Counted from the stretch's first letter, positions 37,721-45,318 are shown. The stretch is 64,000 nucleotides of DNA from Anaerolineales bacterium (GCA_021463845.1 JAJTXV010000001.1:646174-710173); one strand, 5' to 3'. Numbers and translations: made by a program. The notes: a model not told the origin generated them from the sequence alone.

Positions 37721-37810
37721 CCACCTAAGTAATCCAAAGCCTCAGGCATATGCCTGGGGCTTTTTTATTTGCCCTAAAATCGGCTAAACTTGCATTCTAG
37801 GAGCGCACAC

Positions 37811-38164
37811 ATGAAATCAATCGCGAAAATTGCATCCTGGATCCTGATCTTCTTTGGCGTGCTCTTCATCTGGGCTGCGTTTGGCACCCAGACCAGTTGG
37901 GGCAACCTGGCCACCGGCCTGATCACCGTGGGCCTGGGCTTTGGCCTGATGTGGTACGCCAACCAAAAGCTGGCCGCCCCCGGCGAACAAAAGGTGACCT
38001 ACAACGTGGACCTGACCGGCGATGTGAAGCTGGAGAAGTTCCTGTGCCAGCAGTGCGGCGGCGCCCTGAGCGACAAGAACGTGGCCCTAGTGGGCGGCGC
38101 GCTCAACGTCACCTGCCCCTACTGCGGCGCGGTCTACCAGATCGAAGAAGCCCCCAAGTGGTAA
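37811..38164 (+). CDS. Small membrane protein with C-terminal zinc ribbon
   Basis: 117 aa from MKSIAK, with AGGAG 9 nt upstream. Two TM helices are followed by CQQCGG...17...CPYCG. Confidence 0.6.
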   Translation: MKSIAKIASWILIFFGVLFIWAAFGTQTSWGNLATGLITVGLGFGLMWYANQKLAAPGEQKVTYNVDLTGDVKLEKFLCQQCGGALSDKNVALVGGALNVTCPYCGAVYQIEEAPKW

Positions 38165-38231
38165 GCGCCCTGAGCGCAGTAACCAACTTCATCCCTCAGC
38201 CGTTCACTTCAAGCAGGACAGGTTCTGACCG

Positions 38232-39920
38232 ATGAAACTACGACACCGCATTCTCTCTCTTATTCTGTTGCTGCTGGTCGTGTGCGTGCCGCTCAGCGTG
38301 GCCTATGCACAGACCTATGCCTTCCAGGTGCCAACCCAGCGCGTAGATGTGTACTGGGAGCCCAACGGCACCCTGAGCGTCACCTACGAGATCACCTTTC
38401 GCAATGAGAGCTACGCGGACCCGATCGATTATGTAGACGTGGGTCTGCCCAACAATAGCTATTCGGTCTCCAACGTCAGCGCATCCATTGACGGCCGCCC
38501 CATCACCCACATTGCCTACTCGCCCTACATTGATGTTGGCGTGGAACTGGGGTTGGGCGCGTATGCGATCCAGCCCGGCCAGACCGGCACGGTGCGCATG
38601 ACCGCCACCAACGTCAGCAACGTGCTGTATGAGGATAACGAGGACAGCAGCTATGCCAGCGCGCTGTTCATGCCCAACTATTTTGACTCGGACTTTGTCA
38701 ACGGCAGCAGCGACATCACGGTGGTGTTCCACTTGCCGCCGGGCGTACAGCCCAGCGAGCCGCGCTGGCACACCGCCGGCCACCCTGGCTTCCCCGATAC
38801 ACCTGTCACCGGCGTGGATAACTCCGGCCGCATCACCTACACCTGGCGCAACACCAGTGCCAACGCCGGCGAAGACTATTTGTTCGGCGCCTCGTTCCCG
38901 GCCCGCTATGTCGCCAGCGGCAGTGTGACCGTGCCCACTTTCTGGCAGCGCTACGGCATCGATCCTGACGTGGTCATCGGCCTCCTGGTGTGCCTGTGCT
39001 TCGCCGGCTTCTTTGCTTTCATCGTGATCATCGCAGTGAGGGCTGAGCGCAGCCGCAAGCTCAAGTATTTACCGCCCAAGATCTCGGTCGAAGGGCACGG
39101 CATCAAGCGCGGCCTGACCGCGCCGGAAGCCGCCATCCTGCTTGAACAGCCGATGGACAAGATCCTCTCAATGATCATGTTCTCGGTGGTGAAAAAGGGC
39201 GCGGCGGAAGTGGTGACCCGTGACCCGCTGGATGTGGCGCGCGTCACCAAACAGCCAACCGGCTTGAAGGAATACGAGAACGACTTCCTGAACGCGTTCG
39301 CCGAAAGCGACAAAGCCAAGCGCCGGCGCGAGCTGCAGCAGATGATGGTGCGTATGGTGCGCGGCGTGGCCAACAAGATGCGCGGCTTCAGCAAGCGCGA
39401 GACGGTTGAGTTCTACAAGAAGATCACCGCTGATGCCTGGGCCGAAGTGGAAGCCGCGGATACGCCCAAGGTGAAGAGCGAAGCGTTCGACGAGAACCTG
39501 GAATGGACCATGCTGGATCCGAACTACGACCGCCGCACGCGGGATGTGTTCTCAGATGGGCCGGTGTATCTGCCGCGCTGGTATGGCGGCTACAACCCGG
39601 CCTACAACACAGCGGGCAAGACCTCATCCGCCCCCAGCGTGGGCCGCAGCAGCGGCAGCCCCACCCGCAGCACCGGCAGCCCCTCGCTGCCCACCCTGCC
39701 CGGCGGCGACTTCGCCGCCTCGGTGGTGGGCGGCGTGCAGAGCTTTGCCAGCAGCGTGGTGGGCAACCTGTCTGACTTCACCGGCGGCGTGACCAAGGTC
39801 ACCAACCCGCCGCCCCCGCCCTCTACCAGCAGCGGCGGTGGCGGCTTCAGCGGCGGCGGCTCGTCGTGTGCGTGTGCATGCGCAGGCTGCGCCTGCGCAT
39901 GCGCCGGAGGAGGCCGCTAA
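38232..39920 (+). CDS. DUF2207-like single-pass membrane protein with Ser/Gly-rich C-terminus ending in a Cys-Ala repeat (CACACAGCACACAGGGR)
   Basis: 562 aa. It has a signal peptide and an extracytoplasmic domain (Y.F.V....VDV...NG.L.V.YEI.F.N), one TM, and a cytoplasmic domain with the GIKRGLTAPEAAILLE motif. The low-complexity tail is PPPPPSTSSGGGGFSGGGSSCACACAGCACACAGGGR. The cytoplasmic domain is paralogous to 41700-42701. Confidence 0.75.
   Translation: MKLRHRILSLILLLLVVCVPLSVAYAQTYAFQVPTQRVDVYWEPNGTLSVTYEITFRNESYADPIDYVDVGLPNNSYSVSNVSASIDGRPITHIAYSPYIDVGVELGLGAYAIQPGQTGTVRMTATNVSNVLYEDNEDSSYASALFMPNYFDSDFVNGSSDITVVFHLPPGVQPSEPRWHTAGHPGFPDTPVTGVDNSGRITYTWRNTSANAGEDYLFGASFPARYVASGSVTVPTFWQRYGIDPDVVIGLLVCLCFAGFFAFIVIIAVRAERSRKLKYLPPKISVEGHGIKRGLTAPEAAILLEQPMDKILSMIMFSVVKKGAAEVVTRDPLDVARVTKQPTGLKEYENDFLNAFAESDKAKRRRELQQMMVRMVRGVANKMRGFSKRETVEFYKKITADAWAEVEAADTPKVKSEAFDENLEWTMLDPNYDRRTRDVFSDGPVYLPRWYGGYNPAYNTAGKTSSAPSVGRSSGSPTRSTGSPSLPTLPGGDFAASVVGGVQSFASSVVGNLSDFTGGVTKVTNPPPPPSTSSGGGGFSGGGSSCACACAGCACACAGGGR
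39876..39902 (+). other. Perfect 12-bp hairpin inside the Cys-Ala codons, just upstream of the next gene's SD
   Basis: GCATGCGCAGGC-TGC-GCCTGCGCATGC, followed by GGAGGAGG (39906-39913) and ATG 39920. Confidence 0.7.
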
Positions 39921-41083
39921 TGGGCTTTCTGGACAAACTGCGCGGCGGCGAGAAGGCTCAGCCGCTGGAACCCGGGCTGTTCTCCTACACCTCGCCGGCC
40001 AGCCACCCCAACCACTACCGTTTGCACTTGCGGGTTGAGCCGGGCGGCGAAGGCCTGCTGGTCATCAACGCCAGCACGGTATTGCACCTCAACCAAACCG
40101 CCACAGAGATGGCTTGGCACTTCATCCGCCTGACGCCGCCTGAGCAAGTGGCCGAGCAGGTATCCAAGCGCTATAGCACCAACAAGAAGCAGGCGGCCGA
40201 CGATTACGCCGAATTTGCCAAGACGATCCAGACCCTGATCGAAACGCCCGACCTGGACCCGGTGACGTATCTGGATGTCGACCGCGCCACACCCTATGAG
40301 GACCTGAGCGCGCCGTACCGGCTGGATATTGCACTGACCTACCGCCTGCCGGAGGGCGCCCCTGCCGAGGCGGCGCCCAGCAAGCGCGTTGAGCGCGAGC
40401 TGAGCACGGACGAGTGGAAGCAGGTGATCGACAAGGCCTACAACGCCGGCATCCCGCACATCACCTTCACGGGCGGCGAGCCGACCCTGCGCGAAGACCT
40501 GGCCGAGCTGCTGCAGCACGCCGAAGCCCGCGGCCTGGTAACCGGCCTGGTGACCGACGGCCACAAGCTCACCGACACGCGCTACCTCAAGACCCTGCTA
40601 GACGCGGGTCTGGACCATGCCATGATCGTGCTGCAGCCCAGCGGCACGCAGACCTGGGACTCGCTGGCCAGCTTTGCCTATTGGCGTGAAGTGCTGAACG
40701 ATGACATCTTCATCGCTGCCCACCTGACGCTGACCAAGGACAACGCCAGCCAGGCCAATGCGCTGATCGACAAGCTGTCGGGCAGCGGCATCCGCGCCCT
40801 CTCGCTGAGCGAAGCGGACACCTCGCTGCACGAGGCGCTGCAGGCCGCCCGCGACCATGCCGGCGCGCTGAACTTGCCGCTGGTGTGGGACCTGCCCGTG
40901 CCGTATTCGGCGCTCAATCCGGTCAGCTTGGAGCTGGCAGCCGCCCACGGCCAGGATACTCCGCAGGGGGCAGGCAAGGCCTGGCTCTACGTAGAGCCGG
41001 ATGGCGACGTGCTGCCCGGCCAGGGCGGCAAGAAGGTGCTAGGCAATTTTGTGCGCGATGAGTGGAGTGGGATTTGGAGGTAG
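39920..41083 (+). CDS. Radical-SAM-like pseudoenzyme (no CxxxCxxC, no SPASM cysteines) with N-terminal PqqD/RRE-like domain
   Basis: 387 aa. Collinear with 42876-44510, but APYRLDIALTYRLPEGAP replaces APYKVDIALTYGCNNECPHCYN, and LYVEPDGDVLPGQ replaces LCIEPNGNVLPCQ. The GGE-type motif ITFTGGEPTL is retained. The ATG overlaps the upstream TAA (TAATG). Confidence 0.75.
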   Translation: MGFLDKLRGGEKAQPLEPGLFSYTSPASHPNHYRLHLRVEPGGEGLLVINASTVLHLNQTATEMAWHFIRLTPPEQVAEQVSKRYSTNKKQAADDYAEFAKTIQTLIETPDLDPVTYLDVDRATPYEDLSAPYRLDIALTYRLPEGAPAEAAPSKRVERELSTDEWKQVIDKAYNAGIPHITFTGGEPTLREDLAELLQHAEARGLVTGLVTDGHKLTDTRYLKTLLDAGLDHAMIVLQPSGTQTWDSLASFAYWREVLNDDIFIAAHLTLTKDNASQANALIDKLSGSGIRALSLSEADTSLHEALQAARDHAGALNLPLVWDLPVPYSALNPVSLELAAAHGQDTPQGAGKAWLYVEPDGDVLPGQGGKKVLGNFVRDEWSGIWR

Positions 41084-41123
41084 TAGCGTAACAACTGCTG
41101 GCCAGTTACGCTAAAATTATCCC

Positions 41124-41378
41124 ATGAGCGCAGAGCGAAATTTCTCTTTTCGAGTAGTGATCGAGCCGGATGACCCGGAAGGGTTTCATGGATTCGTGCC
41201 ATTGCTACCCGGCGTTCACACTGTGGGGGATACTGTCGAACAGACTAAGCAAAATCTGCGCGAGGCAATTTTGGTTCATGTAGAAGGCCTTCTGAAGGAT
41301 GGCGAAGAAATCCCTCAAGAAGGCAAGGTGCTCGAGTTGGTTGAGACCTTTTCCAGCAAGGATTTTTCCTCAAGCTAG
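41124..41378 (+). CDS. hicB: HicB family antitoxin (short form, no DNA-binding domain)
   Basis: 84 aa. The F.V.IE.D...GF...VP.LPG..T.G.T.E....N..EAI..H.E pattern is typical of HicB/UPF0150. Confidence 0.8.
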   Translation: MSAERNFSFRVVIEPDDPEGFHGFVPLLPGVHTVGDTVEQTKQNLREAILVHVEGLLKDGEEIPQEGKVLELVETFSSKDFSSS

Positions 41379-41609
41379 ATGCCAAAGCTGCCTGTTGTAA
41401 AAGCGAGGGAACTATTGAACGCGCTTCAAAGAATGGGCTTTGTTGTCCATCACCAGCGCGGCAGCCATATTCAACTCAAGCATGCGGATGGCAGACGCGT
41501 CACTGTTCCCATGCATGCAGGTACAGACATACGCAGAGGCACGCTGCGAGCAATCATCAGAGACATCGGGCTTAGTGTCGACGAATTTTTGGAACTACTG
41601 AACCGCTAA
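41379..41609 (+). CDS. hicA: HicA family mRNA-interferase toxin
   Basis: 76 aa. K.RELL.AL...GF......GSH.QLKH..GRR.TVP.H.G.DI..GTL..I..D.GLS..EF. It starts immediately after the hicB stop (TAGATG). Confidence 0.85.
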   Translation: MPKLPVVKARELLNALQRMGFVVHHQRGSHIQLKHADGRRVTVPMHAGTDIRRGTLRAIIRDIGLSVDEFLELLNR

Positions 41610-41634
41610 GCATCCTTCATAGAGAGTACAAGCC

Positions 41635-41692
41635 AGATTGCTTCGGGCTGAAAGTTGCATGCTCATGCAACTTTCAGCATCCTCGCAATGAC
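41635..41692. repeat. AGATTGCTTCG-hairpin-CTCGCAATGAC element (near-identical inverted copy at 62552-62609)
   Basis: AGATTGCTTCGGGCTGAAAGTTGCATGCTCATGCAACTTTCAGCATCCTCGCAATGAC. The reverse complement of 62552-62609 differs at only a few positions. Confidence 0.85.
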
Positions 41693-41699
41693 GGGGAGA

Positions 41700-42701
41700 T
41701 CACCCGTAAAACGTAGTTCTACGAATATCGCTTAGCAGCGCGGCGGTCACTGCATCGCTCTCATCCCCCAAGTCGAGCTTGACGTCGCCTTCGTCTACTA
41801 TGCCGTCGAGCTCGGTGTAGACAGCCTGCACCCAGCGGGCGAAGGTGTGGCCGCCGAGGTGCACCGGCTGCTTGCGCAGCCATTGCGGCACATAGGAATA
41901 GTCCGGCTGGTCGAGCACGCTGACGAAGTCGGCGCCCAGCAGTACCCAGCCTAGGTTGCGGTTGAATATCCGCTCACGGTCGAAGGTCAGCTTGCCGTCG
42001 CTGCGGGCTTCCTTGGGGGCGCGGTCAATGATGAGGTCGTAGTAGGTGCGGGTTTCGTCGAGGCTGTAGCCCCCCGCCCGCCCGGCCACATAGCGCACCA
42101 GCGGCTGCACCGCCACGCCTAGGTCAAGCTGGCGCACGGGAACTCCAGGATGGGTCTCGATGATCTCAAGGAACGGCTCTTCAAAGGCGTGGAGGGCCGC
42201 ATTGATGGCCTGGGCGGCCAGGCGGCGGCGCTCGCCGCGCTGCTGGACGGTCAGCGCGAGACCATGCGTGCGGAAGGCTTCCTCGACTTCGACAGTGAAC
42301 GGCTCGCCGTGCGTCTGGCGCAGGATGCCTTTACGCAACAGCTCGAACAGCAGCAGAGTCAGCGTGATGTTGATCGGCCGGCCAAGCAGCACAGCCGCCT
42401 CGGGCGGCGTGAGGCCGCGCTTGACGCCGCCGCCCTCGATGCGGGCTACGGCGGGCTGGTAGCCCGCCGCCCGTGCCCGGCGCCAGGCAGCCCAACCCAG
42501 CAGGCCCAGCAACGGCACGAAGGCCAGCAGCTGCGCCAGCGGCCAAACGGCGAACAGCGCCAGCAGCCCGGCGGCTAGGGCGGCAAAGAGCAGCCGGCCC
42601 TGTCCGCGGGCCAGCTGCAAGAACAATAGCCACAGCAACGCCGTGAACACGGCGGCTGTGGCTATGCGCAGGATAGCGTTGGCTTCAAGGGCGGCGAGCA
42701 T
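41700..42701 (-). CDS. Membrane protein paralogous to the cytoplasmic domain of the DUF2207-like protein (no Cys tail)
   Basis: 333 aa. Three N-terminal TM helices precede ARIEGGGVKRGLTPPEAAVLLGRP (compare ISVEGHGIKRGLTAPEAAILLEQP). Further collinear matches: GYSLDETRTYY vs GFSKRETVEFY, RNLGWVLL vs ENLEWTML, YVPQWL vs YLPRWY. Confidence 0.7.
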   Translation of the reverse strand: MLAALEANAILRIATAAVFTALLWLLFLQLARGQGRLLFAALAAGLLALFAVWPLAQLLAFVPLLGLLGWAAWRRARAAGYQPAVARIEGGGVKRGLTPPEAAVLLGRPINITLTLLLFELLRKGILRQTHGEPFTVEVEEAFRTHGLALTVQQRGERRRLAAQAINAALHAFEEPFLEIIETHPGVPVRQLDLGVAVQPLVRYVAGRAGGYSLDETRTYYDLIIDRAPKEARSDGKLTFDRERIFNRNLGWVLLGADFVSVLDQPDYSYVPQWLRKQPVHLGGHTFARWVQAVYTELDGIVDEGDVKLDLGDESDAVTAALLSDIRRTTFYG

Positions 42702-42707
42702 GGAGCG

Positions 42708-42737
42708 ATTATACGAGCTGCAAAGCTTTCACCACAA
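42708..42737 (-). promoter_or_regulatory. Candidate promoter giving a leaderless transcript for 41700-42701
   Basis: Minus strand: TTGTGG (42737-42732), an 18-nt spacer, TATAAT (42713-42708), then CGCTCC and ATG (42701). No SD is present. Confidence 0.45.
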
Positions 42738-42872
42738 AGACACGAAGAACACAAAGTTTGGAAATCGTGCGCAGTTCTGTGCGGCTGGCAATAACAGGAT
42801 GGGCGTATAAATCTGCAATCAGAAATCGAAAATCAGAAATACCTTTGTGCTCTTTGTGATTTTGTGGCCCGG
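42725..42872. repeat. MITE-like element with imperfect terminal inverted repeats (CCACAAAGACACGAAGAACACAAAG family)
   Basis: CACCACAAAGACACGAAGAACACAAAGT (42730-42757) and CCTTTGTGCTCTTTGTGATTTTGTGG (42842-42867) are inverted copies matching at about 22 of 26 positions. They flank about 85 nt that contain CAGAAATCGAAAATCAGAAAT. Confidence 0.7.
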
Positions 42873-42875
42873 TAT

Positions 42876-44510
42876 TTATTGCCCGCTCATTACACCGATC
42901 TCGTCCAGCCCGATCATGTCAAAGTTGCCGCTGGCGCGGGTCTTGGTGCGGGTCGTGCTGGGCGACGGCGTGAAGCCGCCAGCAGGAATATACCCAGCGG
43001 TGTGCGAGTGCCCCTTCACCTGATGGGCTGAGTTGCCAGTGCCGCAGCTGCCGCTGCAGCCCGAGCAGCCGCCCCCGCTGCCCTCGGCCACACGCACACC
43101 GTCACGCGCTTCGCGTTCGATGCGGCAGCCGCCGCCGCACAGCGGCAGGTCCGGGCAGGTCCAGCATTTTTCGGGCAGGCCGTAACCCTTGGGGTCCAGC
43201 TCGCGGTAGCGGAAGCTGCGGAACAGCTCGCCATCCCAGATCTTTTCCCATGGGTCGTGCAGGATGTTGCCGGCCGACACGTAGTACGACTGGCACGGCA
43301 GCACGTTGCCGTTGGGCTCGATGCACAGCGAATACTCGCCGGCGTTGCAGCGCTTGGCGCCAATCTCAAGCTCAACCGGCGACATGCGGCAATACTCAGT
43401 GGGCGTGTACCACAGGAAGCGCATGCCAAGCTCGCGGGCCTTGTCACGCACGCGCACCAGCAAGGCCGGCATCTCTTTCTCGTCAATGGCGTTGGAGTGC
43501 GCAAAACCACCGCCGGAGTAGATGAGGCCATTCATAGCGAAGGTGCGGATGCCGAGCGAATACAGGAACTCAATGATCTCCTCGACATGGCCCATGTTGG
43601 CGCGCATCAGGGTGGTGTTGGTGATCACATGCACCCGGCTGGCGATGGCATTCTCGATACCTTGCACGGTCTGGTGCCAGGCCTTGGCGCCCATCATGGC
43701 GTTGTGTACATCCGGGCGGTTGGAATCGAGCGTGAACTGCACATGGTTCAAGCCGGCCTCAGCCAGCTCTTGCATGTACTCATTGTGGGCAATGTGGCGG
43801 CCGTTGGTGTTGAGGCCGACGACCATGCCGAGCTGATCGGCATAGCGAATGACCTGCGGCAGGTCCGGGTGCAGAGTGGCTTCACCGCCAGTGAGGATCA
43901 GGTGCGGCACGCCCAGCTCGGCCAGGCGGTCGAGCACCGCGTACCATTCATTCAGCGGCAGCGAGGGCATGTTGAGGCGGTCGGCCTCGTTATAGCAGTG
44001 CGGGCACTCGTTGTTGCAGCCATAAGTCAGGGCGATGTCGACTTTGTACGGCGCGTTGACTTCCACGCTGAACATAGGCGACATTTCCAGCGTATCGCTC
44101 AGCTCGCAGGTCGGGCAGTCACCGTCCGGGTGGGCAAAGCCCTCGACCATGTCGTAGATCTGGGTCAGCTCGCGCTCGATCTGGGCCAGCGGCGCCTCAG
44201 GGTGCCAGCCGCCGATGCGGGCGCGAGCTTGCGCCCGCGGCACGCCGTCGAGGGCCATCTTGGCCATCAGGGCGGCGGTGTGGTTGAGGTGGACCACATC
44301 GGTCACATCCACGAACATCACGCCGTTGCCGCTGGGCTCGATGCGTAAGTGAATACGCATGCTGCGCCCATTGGCCATTGCGATGTCATAGGTATGCAAA
44401 CCGGTGCGGGGTTTTTCGGGCTGGGAAAAGGCCGCCAGGAAATTGGCCGTGTCGCTGCGCACTCCCTGCCACAATTTATTGACGGAAGCAGAACGGATAT
44501 CGAGGGCCAT
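42876..44510 (-). CDS. Radical SAM/SPASM enzyme with N-terminal PqqD/RRE-like domain and Cys/Ser/Gly-rich C-terminal extension
   Basis: 544 aa. CNNECPHC is the CxxxCxxC motif and LILTGGEATL is the GGE motif. The SPASM motifs are C..8..CIEPNGNVLPC and CWTCPDLPLCGGGC. The N-terminal ~130 aa resemble PqqD/RRE domains (VVHLNHTAALMAKMAL...). About 85 aa extend beyond SPASM and contain GSGGGCSGCSGSCGTG. Confidence 0.85.
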   Translation of the reverse strand: MALDIRSASVNKLWQGVRSDTANFLAAFSQPEKPRTGLHTYDIAMANGRSMRIHLRIEPSGNGVMFVDVTDVVHLNHTAALMAKMALDGVPRAQARARIGGWHPEAPLAQIERELTQIYDMVEGFAHPDGDCPTCELSDTLEMSPMFSVEVNAPYKVDIALTYGCNNECPHCYNEADRLNMPSLPLNEWYAVLDRLAELGVPHLILTGGEATLHPDLPQVIRYADQLGMVVGLNTNGRHIAHNEYMQELAEAGLNHVQFTLDSNRPDVHNAMMGAKAWHQTVQGIENAIASRVHVITNTTLMRANMGHVEEIIEFLYSLGIRTFAMNGLIYSGGGFAHSNAIDEKEMPALLVRVRDKARELGMRFLWYTPTEYCRMSPVELEIGAKRCNAGEYSLCIEPNGNVLPCQSYYVSAGNILHDPWEKIWDGELFRSFRYRELDPKGYGLPEKCWTCPDLPLCGGGCRIEREARDGVRVAEGSGGGCSGCSGSCGTGNSAHQVKGHSHTAGYIPAGGFTPSPSTTRTKTRASGNFDMIGLDEIGVMSGQ

Positions 44511-44550
44511 AGATGAAAGTATATATGATTAATCGACGGAGTGACTAACA

Positions 44551-44568
44551 GACTAGTCAACTAGTCAG
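44551..44568. promoter_or_regulatory. Tandem ACTAGTCA / palindromic GACTAGTC motif in the divergent promoter region
   Basis: GACTAGTCAACTAGTCAG lies 3 nt upstream of TATAAT (44572-44577). It sits between the radical SAM gene (minus strand) and the methyltransferase gene (plus strand). Confidence 0.4.
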
Positions 44569-44586
44569 CCATATAATCCCTGAACG

Positions 44587-45318
44587 ATGCAACCTGCCCT
44601 CGCACACCAGCGCTATACCCAGCAAGCCGCCTGGACCGCCCCAGCCCGCCGCCACCTGCTGGCGGCGGCCGGGCTGCCGAATGCGCGCCGCATACTGGAG
44701 GTGGGCTGCGGCACAGGCGCCATCCTGCGCGGCGTAGCCATGCCGCCGGGCGGCCGTCTGCATGCGCTGGACATAGACCGCGCCGCCCTCACGCTGGCCC
44801 GCCAGCACGCGCCGCAGGCGCACCTGGCGGCGGGCGACGCGCATACCCTGCCCTACCCTCACGCCAGCTTTGACATTGCCTATTGTCATTTTGTGCTGCT
44901 ATGGCTGGCAGACCCAGAACGCGGTCTGGCTGAGATGCGCCGCGTGGTGCGGCCCGGCGGCGCGGTGCTGGCATTGGCCGAGCCGGACTACAGCCAGCGC
45001 AGCGACGAGCCAGCCGAACTGGCCGCGCTGGGGCATGCGCAGACCGAAGCCCTGCGCGCCCGCGGCGCTGACCCCGCTGCGGGCGGCCAACTGCCTGCGT
45101 TGTTTGCGGCGGCCGGGCTGCACATCGTCGACGCCGGGCCGCTGCAAGTCAGCAGCCCGGCCGCAGAAGGCGAAGCCAGCACGCTGCGCGTCGACCTGAG
45201 CGGGCATGTGCCCGCCGAGCAGCTGGAGCGATGGCTAGCGCAGGACGCTGCGGCCTGGGCAGCGGGCACGCGCAGGCTACATGTGCCCACCTACTACGCC
45301 TTCGGGCGGGTGCGGTAG
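44587..45318 (+). CDS. Class I SAM-dependent methyltransferase
   Basis: 243 aa. Motif I is ILEVGCGTGAILRG, followed by the post-I region and FDIAYCHFVLLWLADPERGLAEMRRVVRPGGAVL. Confidence 0.85.
   Translation: MQPALAHQRYTQQAAWTAPARRHLLAAAGLPNARRILEVGCGTGAILRGVAMPPGGRLHALDIDRAALTLARQHAPQAHLAAGDAHTLPYPHASFDIAYCHFVLLWLADPERGLAEMRRVVRPGGAVLALAEPDYSQRSDEPAELAALGHAQTEALRARGADPAAGGQLPALFAAAGLHIVDAGPLQVSSPAAEGEASTLRVDLSGHVPAEQLERWLAQDAAAWAAGTRRLHVPTYYAFGRVR

What the first reader, a model, noticed from the sequence alone, without database searches (positions are those of the whole stretch)
42876..44510. RRE-rSAM-SPASM enzyme carrying its own Cys/Ser/Gly-rich C-terminal extension
Beyond a complete SPASM domain (ending CGGGCRIE), the enzyme continues for about 85 aa: AEGSGGGCSGCSGSCGTGNSAHQVKGHSHTAGYIP...NFDMIGLDEIGVMSGQ. 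The GGGCSGCSGSCG stretch resembles the CACACAGCACACAG tail of the membrane protein in the opposite module, whereas the membrane protein of its own module has no such tail. There is also an extra CPTC between the RRE-like domain and the core.

The extension could be a fused substrate (self-modification or modification in trans) or an additional metal site.
Basis: partly seen in the sequence, partly recalled or inferred. Interest (0 to 1): 0.62.

Follow-up and report, generated by a model that had tools for sequence, protein, structure and literature searches.

The report
Conserved cysteine-bearing tail on radical-SAM enzyme
The radical-SAM enzyme really ends in an 82-residue tail kept under selection in Chloroflexota relatives, but its first cysteine is most likely the normal last iron-sulfur ligand of the SPASM domain and the rest a flexible arm, not a fused substrate.

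Summary
The ORF 42876-44510 (-) encodes a 544-aa RRE-like/radical-SAM/SPASM enzyme, with the tail and the CPTC as described.

**What the tail is**
- It is not junk. All 120 closest orthologues (60-99% identity) carry it, and its dN/dS is 0.06-0.25.
- "Beyond a complete SPASM domain" is inaccurate. The seven-Cys SPASM motif needs one more Cys about 18 residues after CX3C. C482 lies 20 residues after C462, fits that place, and is lost in only 1 of 76 sequences.
- C485 and C489 are extras. They were gained or lost at least 10 times on the tree.
- The distal 55 residues are predicted disordered but hold conserved motifs (TAGFIP, RxSG, LIxLDEI).

**What it is not**
- The likeness to the membrane protein's CACACAG tail is compositional only (hhalign probability 0.35%).
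- Enzyme tail and Cys-Ala tail coexist in ancestral-type loci, and the own-module membrane protein never carries a Cys tail. So no tail was transferred.

**Origin of the two modules**
The window looks like a merger of two paralogous cassettes with reciprocal losses.

**Best reading**
An AuxII ligand plus accessory thiols plus a docking arm. A fused substrate is unlikely, and a fourth metal site is not excluded. Moderate interest; a new variant of a known kind.

The parts
44121..44510 (-). N-terminal RRE-like (PqqD-like) domain, residues 1-130
   Evidence: The AF2 model has four strands (37-75) followed by three helices (77-126), with pLDDT 80-95. The region aligns with the paralogue's N-terminus, which hits Pfam PqqD. 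Best fold matches are the RRE-bearing SkfB, SuiB and CteB. This protein itself has no Pfam PqqD hit.
44106..44117 (-). CPTC (C132, C135) in the linker between the RRE-like domain and the core
   Evidence: Invariant in 103 orthologues. It is retained in relatives that keep only one tail Cys (17 sequences). A single 'CP' persists in several distant homologues. pLDDT here is about 56.
43563..44030 (-). Radical SAM core, with the CX3CX2C cluster motif C165/C169/C172
   Evidence: Pfam PF04055, E = 1e-27, residues 161-316. The three Cys are invariant.
43065..43349 (-). SPASM domain as defined by its Cys motif: C388-X12-G401-X4-C406, C449-X2-C452-X5-C458-X3-C462, then a 19-residue gap to C482. C374 and C396 are further invariant Cys.
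   Evidence: Pfam PF13186 covers 388-453. Invariant columns are listed. The PqqE alignment puts C449/C452/C458/C462 on PqqE C310/C313/D319/C323. The position of the last ligand comes from PMC5715301.
43044..43067 (-). Cys triad C482-SG-C485-SGS-C489 in a Gly-rich loop. C482 is the probable AuxII ligand; C485 and C489 are surplus.
   Evidence: DNA read. C482 is invariant, C485 is present in at least 90% and C489 in fewer. dN = 0 in 8 of 10 pairs. The extra Cys changed state at least 10 times; the first Cys was lost once.
42879..43043 (-). Distal tail, residues 490-544. It has a variable spacer (490-503), motif A T504-P515 (TAGYIPAGGFTP) and motif B R525-I538 (RASGNFDMIGLDEI).
   Evidence: P515 and R525 are invariant; G512, G528 and I533 are at least 90% conserved. 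pLDDT is below 50 for 476-505 and 522-544 and 51-63 in between. dN/dS for 506-544 is 0.03-0.38. A hydrophobic end motif persists even in the shortest tails, for example GFIPLSVIS.
41700..42701 (-). Own-module membrane protein (333 aa, no Cys). It looks like a degenerate relative of the Cys-Ala-tailed membrane protein of type-2 cassettes.
   Evidence: It is 26% identical to the opposite-module membrane protein over 234 aligned residues. It is 33-43% identical to type-2 membrane proteins and 26-29% to type-3 ones. Orthologues end in ..ATFYG without Cys.
38232..39920 (+). Opposite-module membrane protein with the CACACAGCACACAGGGR tail, the presumed substrate of the cassette
   Evidence: The tail is near-invariant in 49 loci. 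The protein is 40-52% identical to type-3 cassette membrane proteins.
39920..41083 (+). Cys-less radical-SAM paralogue ('twin')
   Evidence: It is 27% identical to the enzyme and has no CX3CX2C motif. Pfam gives a partial Radical_SAM hit and a PqqD hit. It is 48-54% identical to type-3 twins and 23-26% to type-2 twins.
37790..38164 (+). Membrane-anchored zinc-ribbon protein, a constant companion of the cassette
   Evidence: tblastn finds it in most of the 80 loci, next to the tailed enzyme in type-2 loci. Pfam gives only weak zinc-ribbon hits.

Best explanation
The tail is a lineage-specific, selectively maintained extension of the SPASM domain. It is not a substrate. I read it in three parts.

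1. **C482.** This is the seventh SPASM cysteine and supplies the fourth ligand of the distal auxiliary [4Fe-4S] cluster (AuxII). This is inferred from spacing and conservation.
2. **C485 and C489.** They lie in the same glycine-rich loop, at the surface next to AuxII. I take them to be accessory thiols: spare or alternative ligands, or a small redox or metal-handling pair. They help but are dispensable, because several lineages have lost one or both. This is inference.
3. **Residues 490-544.** These form a flexible arm. Its conserved short motifs (TAGFIP, RxSG, and a hydrophobic-acidic end LIxLDEI) most likely dock on another component of the cassette: the RRE-like domain of the inactive twin, the cytoplasmic domain of the membrane protein, or the zinc-ribbon protein. 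That would hold the only active enzyme near the membrane-bound Cys-Ala tail that it presumably modifies. This is inference and the partner is not identified.

The 'tail on the enzyme here, tail on the membrane protein there' pattern comes from a merger of two paralogous cassettes with reciprocal losses, not from moving a tail.
For: **C482 as the SPASM ligand**
- The alignment to PqqE places C449/C452/C458/C462 on C310/C313/D319/C323.
- The last AuxII Cys lies 18 residues after that motif in PqqE and anSME (PMC5715301). C482 lies 20 residues after.
- The full SPASM motif is then satisfied.
- C482 is invariant in 103 orthologues and lost in 1 of 76 tree rows. The 3-Cys state changed at least 10 times.
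- Outgroups at 46-58% identity end with a single Cys 13-17 residues after CX3C.

**Tail under selection**
- dN/dS is 0.06-0.25, against 0.04-0.09 for the core.
- P515 and R525 are invariant.

**Flexible arm**
- pLDDT is below 50 for 476-505 and 522-544.

**Not a substrate**
- hhalign probability is 0.35% against the Cys-Ala tails.
- Both tails coexist in type-2 loci.
- No free peptide homologue was found.
- The own-module membrane protein never bears a Cys tail.

**Merger**
- Type-3 cassettes in the same order have zinc-ribbon, Cys-Ala-tailed protein, tail-less active enzyme, Cys-less twin and methyltransferase, in that order.
- The window's twin and Cys-Ala-tailed protein are closest to these (48-54% and 40-52% identity).
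- The window's enzyme is closest to type-2 enzymes (56-70%, against 41-44% for type-3).
- The genome holds only this one active enzyme and the twin.
Against: - No cluster stoichiometry, structure or contact was observed. AlphaFold2 models no Fe-S clusters, gives low confidence for the whole AuxII region (455-465), and I could not read its coordinates.
- The last SPASM Cys is not universal in the wider family. The three type-3 enzymes examined and several distant homologues have no Cys after CX3C, and L052 has lost it. So the ligand role of C482 is not obligatory.
- The protein has five Cys more than three standard clusters need: C132, C135, one of C374/C396, C485 and C489. That would be enough for a fourth site.
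- The docking role of the distal motifs is pure inference. No partner co-varies with the tail: all components exist in every genome type looked at.
Confidence: 0.5

Rival explanations
1. Additional fourth metal site. C485 and C489, possibly with C482 or with the invariant C132/C135 (CPTC) or C374, bind an extra [4Fe-4S], [2Fe-2S] or rubredoxin/zinc-type centre. That centre would relay electrons to AuxII or tie the tail to the RRE-core linker.
For: - The protein has sixteen Cys, five more than three standard clusters need.
- CX2CX3C is a plausible cluster motif, and CPxC is a typical metal knuckle (general knowledge).
- The Cys segment has dN = 0 in most close pairs.
- From my own memory, not checked here: the radical-SAM tetraether lipid synthase GDGT-MAS carries a rubredoxin-like iron besides its clusters.
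Against: - The second and third tail Cys were lost repeatedly, with at least 10 state changes.
- CPTC stays intact in 17 sequences that keep one tail Cys and in 34 with CxxC only. So CPTC and the extra tail Cys do not co-vary.
- The spacing varies among lineages: CxxC, CxxxC, CxxxxC.
Confidence: 0.22
2. Built-in substrate or pseudo-substrate. The enzyme modifies its own Cys-rich stretch (in cis or between subunits), or the stretch occupies the active site as an autoinhibitory mimic of the Cys-Ala tail until the real substrate arrives.
For: - The small-residue/Cys composition is like that of the Cys-Ala tail.
- In a scattered subset of orthologues the enzyme ends with a leader-like LIxLDxI motif, a spacer and a terminal CxxxxCxC(R/H). 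This looks like a precursor-peptide layout: 10 of 119 sequences, 7 state changes on the tree.
- Radical SAM/SPASM enzymes do act on whole Cys-rich proteins, as with CrpC/CrpA (PMC13692751).
Against: - There is no profile similarity to the Cys-Ala tails.
- The tail coexists with the real Cys-Ala-tailed protein in the same operons.
- The first Cys sits at the canonical ligand position, and the next two are only 3 and 7 residues away from it. I infer that this is too close for them to reach the SAM-cluster active site if C482 holds AuxII.
- The extra Cys are dispensable in many lineages.
- No free peptide version exists.
- The window's protein lacks the terminal CxxxxCxC.
Confidence: 0.12
3. A functionless low-complexity linker produced by slippage of a GGC/AGC/TGC-rich stretch.
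For: - A weak 9-bp repeat lies at 43041-43072.
- The Gly/Cys run is expanded in some relatives, such as L058 and P0113.
Against: - There is strong purifying selection at the protein level with saturating synonymous change.
- Distal residues are invariant.
- The tail is conserved down to 55-60% identity.
Confidence: 0.03

Closest known systems
RRE-fused radical SAM/SPASM (or twitch) peptide maturases: SkfB (6EFN), SuiB (5V1Q), CteB (5WHY)
   Same: Same three-part build: an N-terminal peptide-recognition-like domain, a radical SAM barrel and a C-terminal auxiliary-cluster domain. These are the best fold matches (E 1e-15 to 4e-12) and the best sequence matches in the PDB.
   Different: Identity is only 14-21%. 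Those enzymes end shortly after the last cluster ligand and act on small free peptides. This enzyme continues for about 60 residues past C482 and sits in a cassette whose likely target is the tail of a membrane protein.
PqqE (6C8V; NCBIfam TIGR02109) and anSME (4K36), the reference SPASM structures
   Same: The CX2CX5CX3C block aligns residue for residue with PqqE. The last AuxII Cys lies 18 residues downstream in both references and 20 residues downstream here.
   Different: The score is 121.5 bits against a TIGR02109 cut-off of 381, so this is not PqqE. Neither reference has two further Cys after the last ligand or a long C-terminal arm.
CrpC/CrpA of Methanococcus voltae (PMC13692751) and StsB/StsA (PMC10288494)
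   Same: These are radical SAM/SPASM enzymes that form thioether links in Cys-rich targets. CrpC acts on a whole protein. The StsB family is among the NCBIfam hits (94 bits).
   Different: The score is far below the StsB cut-off of 625 bits. The substrates there are separate polypeptides. The abstracts I read mention no Cys-bearing C-terminal extension on either enzyme.
The 'Cys-Ala tail' cassette noted earlier in this scan (membrane protein ending in (Cys-Ala)n-GGGR, radical SAM/SPASM enzyme, inactive twin, zinc-ribbon protein, methyltransferase)
   Same: This enzyme is the active radical SAM component of that cassette.
   Different: The tail is a feature of only one sub-lineage of the cassette's enzymes (types 1 and 2). 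Type-3 enzymes of the same bacterial order lack it entirely.

Membership tests
Radical SAM superfamily (PF04055) | CX3CX2C motif binding the SAM-cleaving [4Fe-4S] cluster, within a partial TIM barrel | tested here: met
   C165-X3-C169-X2-C172 is invariant. PF04055 E = 1e-27, 97.8 bits against a cut-off of 29.5. The AF2 core has alternating strands and helices with pLDDT 85-96.
SPASM subfamily (PF13186 / TIGR04085-type motif) | Seven-Cys motif CX9-15GX4C, gap, CX2CX5CX3C, gap, C | tested here: met
C388-X12-G401-X4-C406; C449-X2-C452-X5-C458-X3-C462; C482 after 19 residues. PF13186 scores 44.4 bits against a cut-off of 21.5.
SPASM subfamily | Two auxiliary [4Fe-4S] clusters actually bound | not testable with these tools
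   This needs Fe/S quantification, EPR or Moessbauer, or a structure.
RRE (PqqD-like, PF05402) fused maturases | N-terminal winged-helix domain with a three-stranded sheet and three helices that binds a leader peptide | tested here: inconclusive
   This protein has no Pfam PqqD hit at E <= 0.01. The paralogue hits PqqD (25.6 bits) and aligns over the same region. AF2 secondary structure (strands 37-75, helices 77-126) and the fold matches to SkfB, SuiB and CteB fit. Peptide binding was not tested.
PqqE (TIGR02109 equivalog) | Score above the curated cut-off; PQQ operon context | tested here: not met
   121.5 bits against 381.35. No pqq genes are nearby.
StsB-family sactipeptide maturases (NF045574) | Score above the curated cut-off; StsA-like precursor next to it | tested here: not met
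   94.1 bits against 625. No small precursor was seen in the loci.
Enzyme-fused RiPP precursor (substrate fused to its own maturase) | The tail is homologous to free precursors or to the cassette's substrate, and is covalently modified | tested here: not met
   hhalign probability is 0.35% against the Cys-Ala tails. No free homologue of 42-133 aa was found. Modification itself cannot be tested here.

The most novel reading that the evidence does not exclude
The Cys-bearing arm is a working part of the chemistry, not an ordinary ligand loop. It would be a built-in pseudo-substrate or thiol/metal relay that is transiently or permanently modified by the enzyme, or that hands sulfur, electrons or a metal from AuxII to the Cys-Ala tail of the membrane protein. 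The patchy extra terminal CxxxxCxC motif of some orthologues would then be a second, fused acceptor. That would make this a radical SAM maturase carrying part of its own substrate or cofactor arm.
Probability: 0.12. Interest if true: 0.7.

Novelty: new variant of a known kind. Interest (0 to 1): 0.36.

Why it matters
The enzyme is the only active radical SAM protein of a widespread but uncharacterised cassette whose likely target is the invariant Cys-Ala tail of a membrane protein.

Three points matter for anyone who wants to express or reconstitute the system:
- Where the SPASM domain really ends. A construct cut at 'CGGGCRIE' would remove a probable cluster ligand.
- Which cysteines are core (C482) and which are optional (C485, C489).
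- That a conserved flexible arm probably mediates assembly.

The comparison also shows that the two-module layout in this genome is a merger of two paralogous cassettes with complementary losses. That explains the odd pairing of an active enzyme with a tail-less membrane protein, and of a dead enzyme with the tailed one. The tail itself is a modest elaboration rather than a new principle.

Tried and rejected
1. **Tail swapping between enzyme and membrane protein.** Rejected. In type-2 loci both tails are present, and own-module membrane-protein orthologues never carry one.
2. **Extra tail Cys track the presence of the Cys-Ala-tailed protein.** The clade with 0-1 tail Cys (L042, L045, L048, L049, L052, L073) lacks that protein in the locus. 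But whole-genome searches found it, with the twin, on another contig in all six genomes. Rejected.
3. **CPTC and the tail CxxC form one four-Cys site.** I looked for co-loss and found none. Weakened, not excluded.
4. **Homology of the enzyme tail to the Cys-Ala tail or its upstream NLSGxDKVTGDIF motif.** hhalign found nothing.
5. **Stand-alone peptides like the tail.** None found. The caveat is that the search is word-based and small genes are often not called.
6. **Cis-docking of the C-terminal motif on the enzyme's own RRE-like domain.** AlphaFold2 with 103 sequences leaves the tail disordered. This is weak negative evidence.
7. **Reading Cys-Cys distances from the model.** Coordinates are not exposed to the Python box.
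8. **Literature.** Searches for this cassette or for a C-terminal Cys extension on SPASM enzymes gave nothing specific.

Full report
**1. What is there**

The ORF 42876..44510 on the minus strand encodes 544 residues with exactly the quoted C-terminus.
- Pfam finds Radical_SAM at 161-316 (E = 1e-27) and SPASM at 388-453 (E = 2e-11).
- No NCBIfam model reaches its cut-off. The best are PqqE (121.5 bits against 381), NirJ2, AhbD and the GeoRSP enzyme, with the StsB family at 94 bits against 625.
That module holds a zinc-ribbon protein, a 562-aa membrane protein ending in CACACAGCACACAGGGR, and a Cys-less radical-SAM paralogue.
- The paralogue is 27% identical to the enzyme. The two membrane proteins are 26% identical over 234 aligned residues.
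- The genome has only these two radical-SAM relatives of this kind.

**2. The tail is real and under selection**

- A search of 5.8 billion proteins returned more than 1,400 relatives. The best 120 (60-99% identity, mostly Anaerolineales and other Chloroflexota metagenome bins) all carry a tail of the same design: CGGGCRIEREAR-DG-R, then GGGC-x-GC-x-G-x-CGT, a variable spacer, (H)TAGFIP, R-x-SG-x-M and LI-x-L-[DE]-[DE]-I.
- In an alignment of 103 of them, C482, P515 and R525 are invariant. C485, G512, G528 and I533 are at least 90% conserved.
- Pairwise Nei-Gojobori estimates give dN/dS of 0.06-0.25 for residues 463-544, against 0.04-0.09 for the core and 0.05-0.27 for the N-terminal domain.
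- Over residues 482-492, dN is zero in 8 of 10 pairs, with dS 0.3-1.5 where it could be estimated (undefined in one pair).
- The DNA there is a weak 9-bp repeat. Conservation is at the protein level, so a slippage-made junk linker is excluded.

**3. Where the SPASM domain ends**

- Sequence and profile searches of the PDB align C449-X2-C452-X5-C458-X3-C462 with PqqE C310, C313, D319 and C323.
- In PqqE the remaining AuxII ligand is C341, and in anSME it is C348. Each lies 18 residues after the last Cys of that block (PMC5715301).
- Here C482 lies 20 residues after C462. With C388-X12-G401-X4-C406 upstream, the full seven-Cys SPASM pattern is met only if C482 is counted.
The Pfam model simply does not cover that far.
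- Homologues at 35-58% identity end 6-37 residues after CX3C, about half of them with a single Cys 6-17 residues downstream.

**4. Which cysteines matter**

- On a tree of 76 enzymes built from the core only, the three-Cys state occurs in all major branches of the tailed clade, so it is probably ancestral there.
- That state changed at least 10 times to two, one or no Cys, with variable spacing (CxxC, CxxxC, CxxxxC). The first Cys was lost once, in L052.
- So C482 behaves like a structural ligand, and C485/C489 behave like accessories.
- CPTC (C132/C135) is invariant. It stays intact in lineages with one or two tail Cys, which argues against a joint CPTC + C485/C489 site but does not exclude one.
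- Counting all invariant Cys, the protein has five more than three standard clusters need. A fourth site therefore remains a live rival.

**5. The distal arm**

- AlphaFold2 with the 103-sequence alignment gives a good core (pTM 0.79; many blocks have pLDDT above 90).
- pLDDT is below 50 for 476-505 and 522-544, and only 51-63 for 506-521.
- The tail is not docked on the enzyme's own N-terminal domain. Coordinates could not be read.
- The best fold matches are SkfB, SuiB, CteB, PqqE and anSME.
- The most persistent feature of the arm across the clade is the short hydrophobic or hydrophobic-acidic end: LIGLDEI, FISLDSL, GFIPLSVIS.
- Conserved Pro, Gly, Arg and alternating hydrophobic residues in a disordered segment are typical of a short linear docking motif. 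That is my inference for its role. The partner is not identified.

**6. Not a substrate, and not a transferred tail**

- A profile-profile comparison of 70 enzyme tails with the last 100 residues of 48 Cys-Ala-tailed proteins gave probability 0.35% over four columns.
- In type-2 loci the order is zinc-ribbon protein, tailed enzyme, twin that keeps five Cys, a ~625-aa membrane protein with the invariant CACACAGCACACACAGGGR end, then methyltransferase. The enzyme tail and the Cys-Ala tail stand side by side there.
- Own-module membrane-protein orthologues never have a Cys tail.
- No free 42-133-aa protein resembles the tail.
- A clade with 0-1 tail Cys seemed to lack the Cys-Ala-tailed protein. 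Whole-genome searches found it, with the twin, on another contig in all six genomes. That apparent correlation was only a split operon.

**7. Why the window looks the way it does**

- Sampling 200 genomes of the phylum showed that other families of the same order have a third layout: zinc-ribbon protein, Cys-Ala-tailed protein, a tail-less active enzyme, Cys-less twin, then methyltransferase. In the three loci I read in full (L092-L094), two of those enzymes are 457 aa and none has a Cys after CX3C.
- The window's twin (48-54% identity) and its Cys-Ala-tailed protein (40-52%) are closest to this type-3 lineage.
- The window's enzyme is closest to type-2 enzymes (56-70% identity, against 41-44% for type-3). 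Its 333-aa neighbour is closest to type-2 membrane proteins (33-43%, against 26-29%).
- The simplest reading is a merger of two paralogous cassettes followed by reciprocal loss. The type-3 half lost its active enzyme. The type-2 half lost its twin, and its membrane protein lost its N-terminal domain and Cys-Ala tail.
- The enzyme's tail is older than this event.

**8. Verdict**

- Best explanation (about 0.5): C482 is the AuxII ligand, C485/C489 are dispensable accessory thiols at that cluster, and residues 490-544 are a conserved flexible docking arm.
- Rivals: a fourth metal site (about 0.2), a built-in substrate or pseudo-substrate (about 0.1), and junk (rejected).
- A scattered subset of orthologues adds a terminal CxxxxCxC(R/H) after the hydrophobic motif. 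This keeps the substrate-like reading from being dismissed for the family as a whole, but the window's protein lacks it.
- It is a new variant of a known enzyme kind, inside a cassette that is itself undescribed in the literature I could search but already flagged elsewhere in this scan.

Noticed in passing
window 37790-45318; loci L092-L094 (G084:C1:1754000-1772000 and others): The two convergent modules look like a merger of two paralogous cassettes with complementary losses. The zinc-ribbon / Cys-Ala-tailed protein / Cys-less twin module matches a 'type-3' cassette that elsewhere has a tail-less active radical SAM enzyme between the membrane protein and the twin. That enzyme is missing here.
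   Followed up: partly
P0050, P0059, P0063, P0064, P0083, P0087, P0091, P0099, P0107, P0117; L039:7965-9659: Ten of 119 orthologues, plus L039, end with an additional CxxxxCxC(R/H) motif 20-50 residues after the LIxLDxI motif. Examples are ..GGCGSGQCSCH and ..RCGSGHCGCG. The motif is scattered on the tree (7 state changes).
   Followed up: partly
L058:2373-4706; P0113: In two relatives the Gly/Cys stretch of the enzyme tail is expanded into (GGGGC/GSGGC) repeats with 5-6 Cys. This suggests slippage-prone DNA in this segment.
   Followed up: no
L039:9716-11026, L028:9613-11001, L033, L064, L066: The inactive twin of type-2 cassettes has lost CX3CX2C but keeps five conserved Cys: one upstream Cys plus CxxCPGLAICAADCP. 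The window's twin has none. The degree of 'deadness' therefore differs between lineages.
   Followed up: no
L042, L045, L048, L049, L052, L073 and L089-L091: In one clade of large (6-8 Mb) genomes the cassette is split. The zinc-ribbon protein and the enzyme (short tail, 0-1 Cys) are at one locus. The twin and the Cys-Ala-tailed protein are on another contig.
   Followed up: yes
window 41124-41609: Two small ORFs (84 and 76 aa) sit between the convergent modules. The second begins MPKLPVVKARELL..HQRGSHIQLKH, which looks like a HicA-type toxin, and a HicB-like protein precedes it.
   Followed up: no
window 43389-43391 (C374) and relatives: A Cys in WYTPTEYC(R/x)xxP, 14 residues before the first SPASM Cys, is invariant in the tailed clade and widely kept (sometimes shifted by two residues) in distant homologues. 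Its role is not assigned by the standard SPASM ligand scheme.
   Followed up: no
loci L024-L080, last 100 residues of the Cys-Ala-tailed proteins: Upstream of the Cys-Ala repeat these proteins share conserved motifs (FGDVAASFAGWTENTMG and NLSGxDKVTGDIFKAL), 15-60 residues before the repeat. These are candidate recognition elements for the enzyme or the twin.
   Followed up: no
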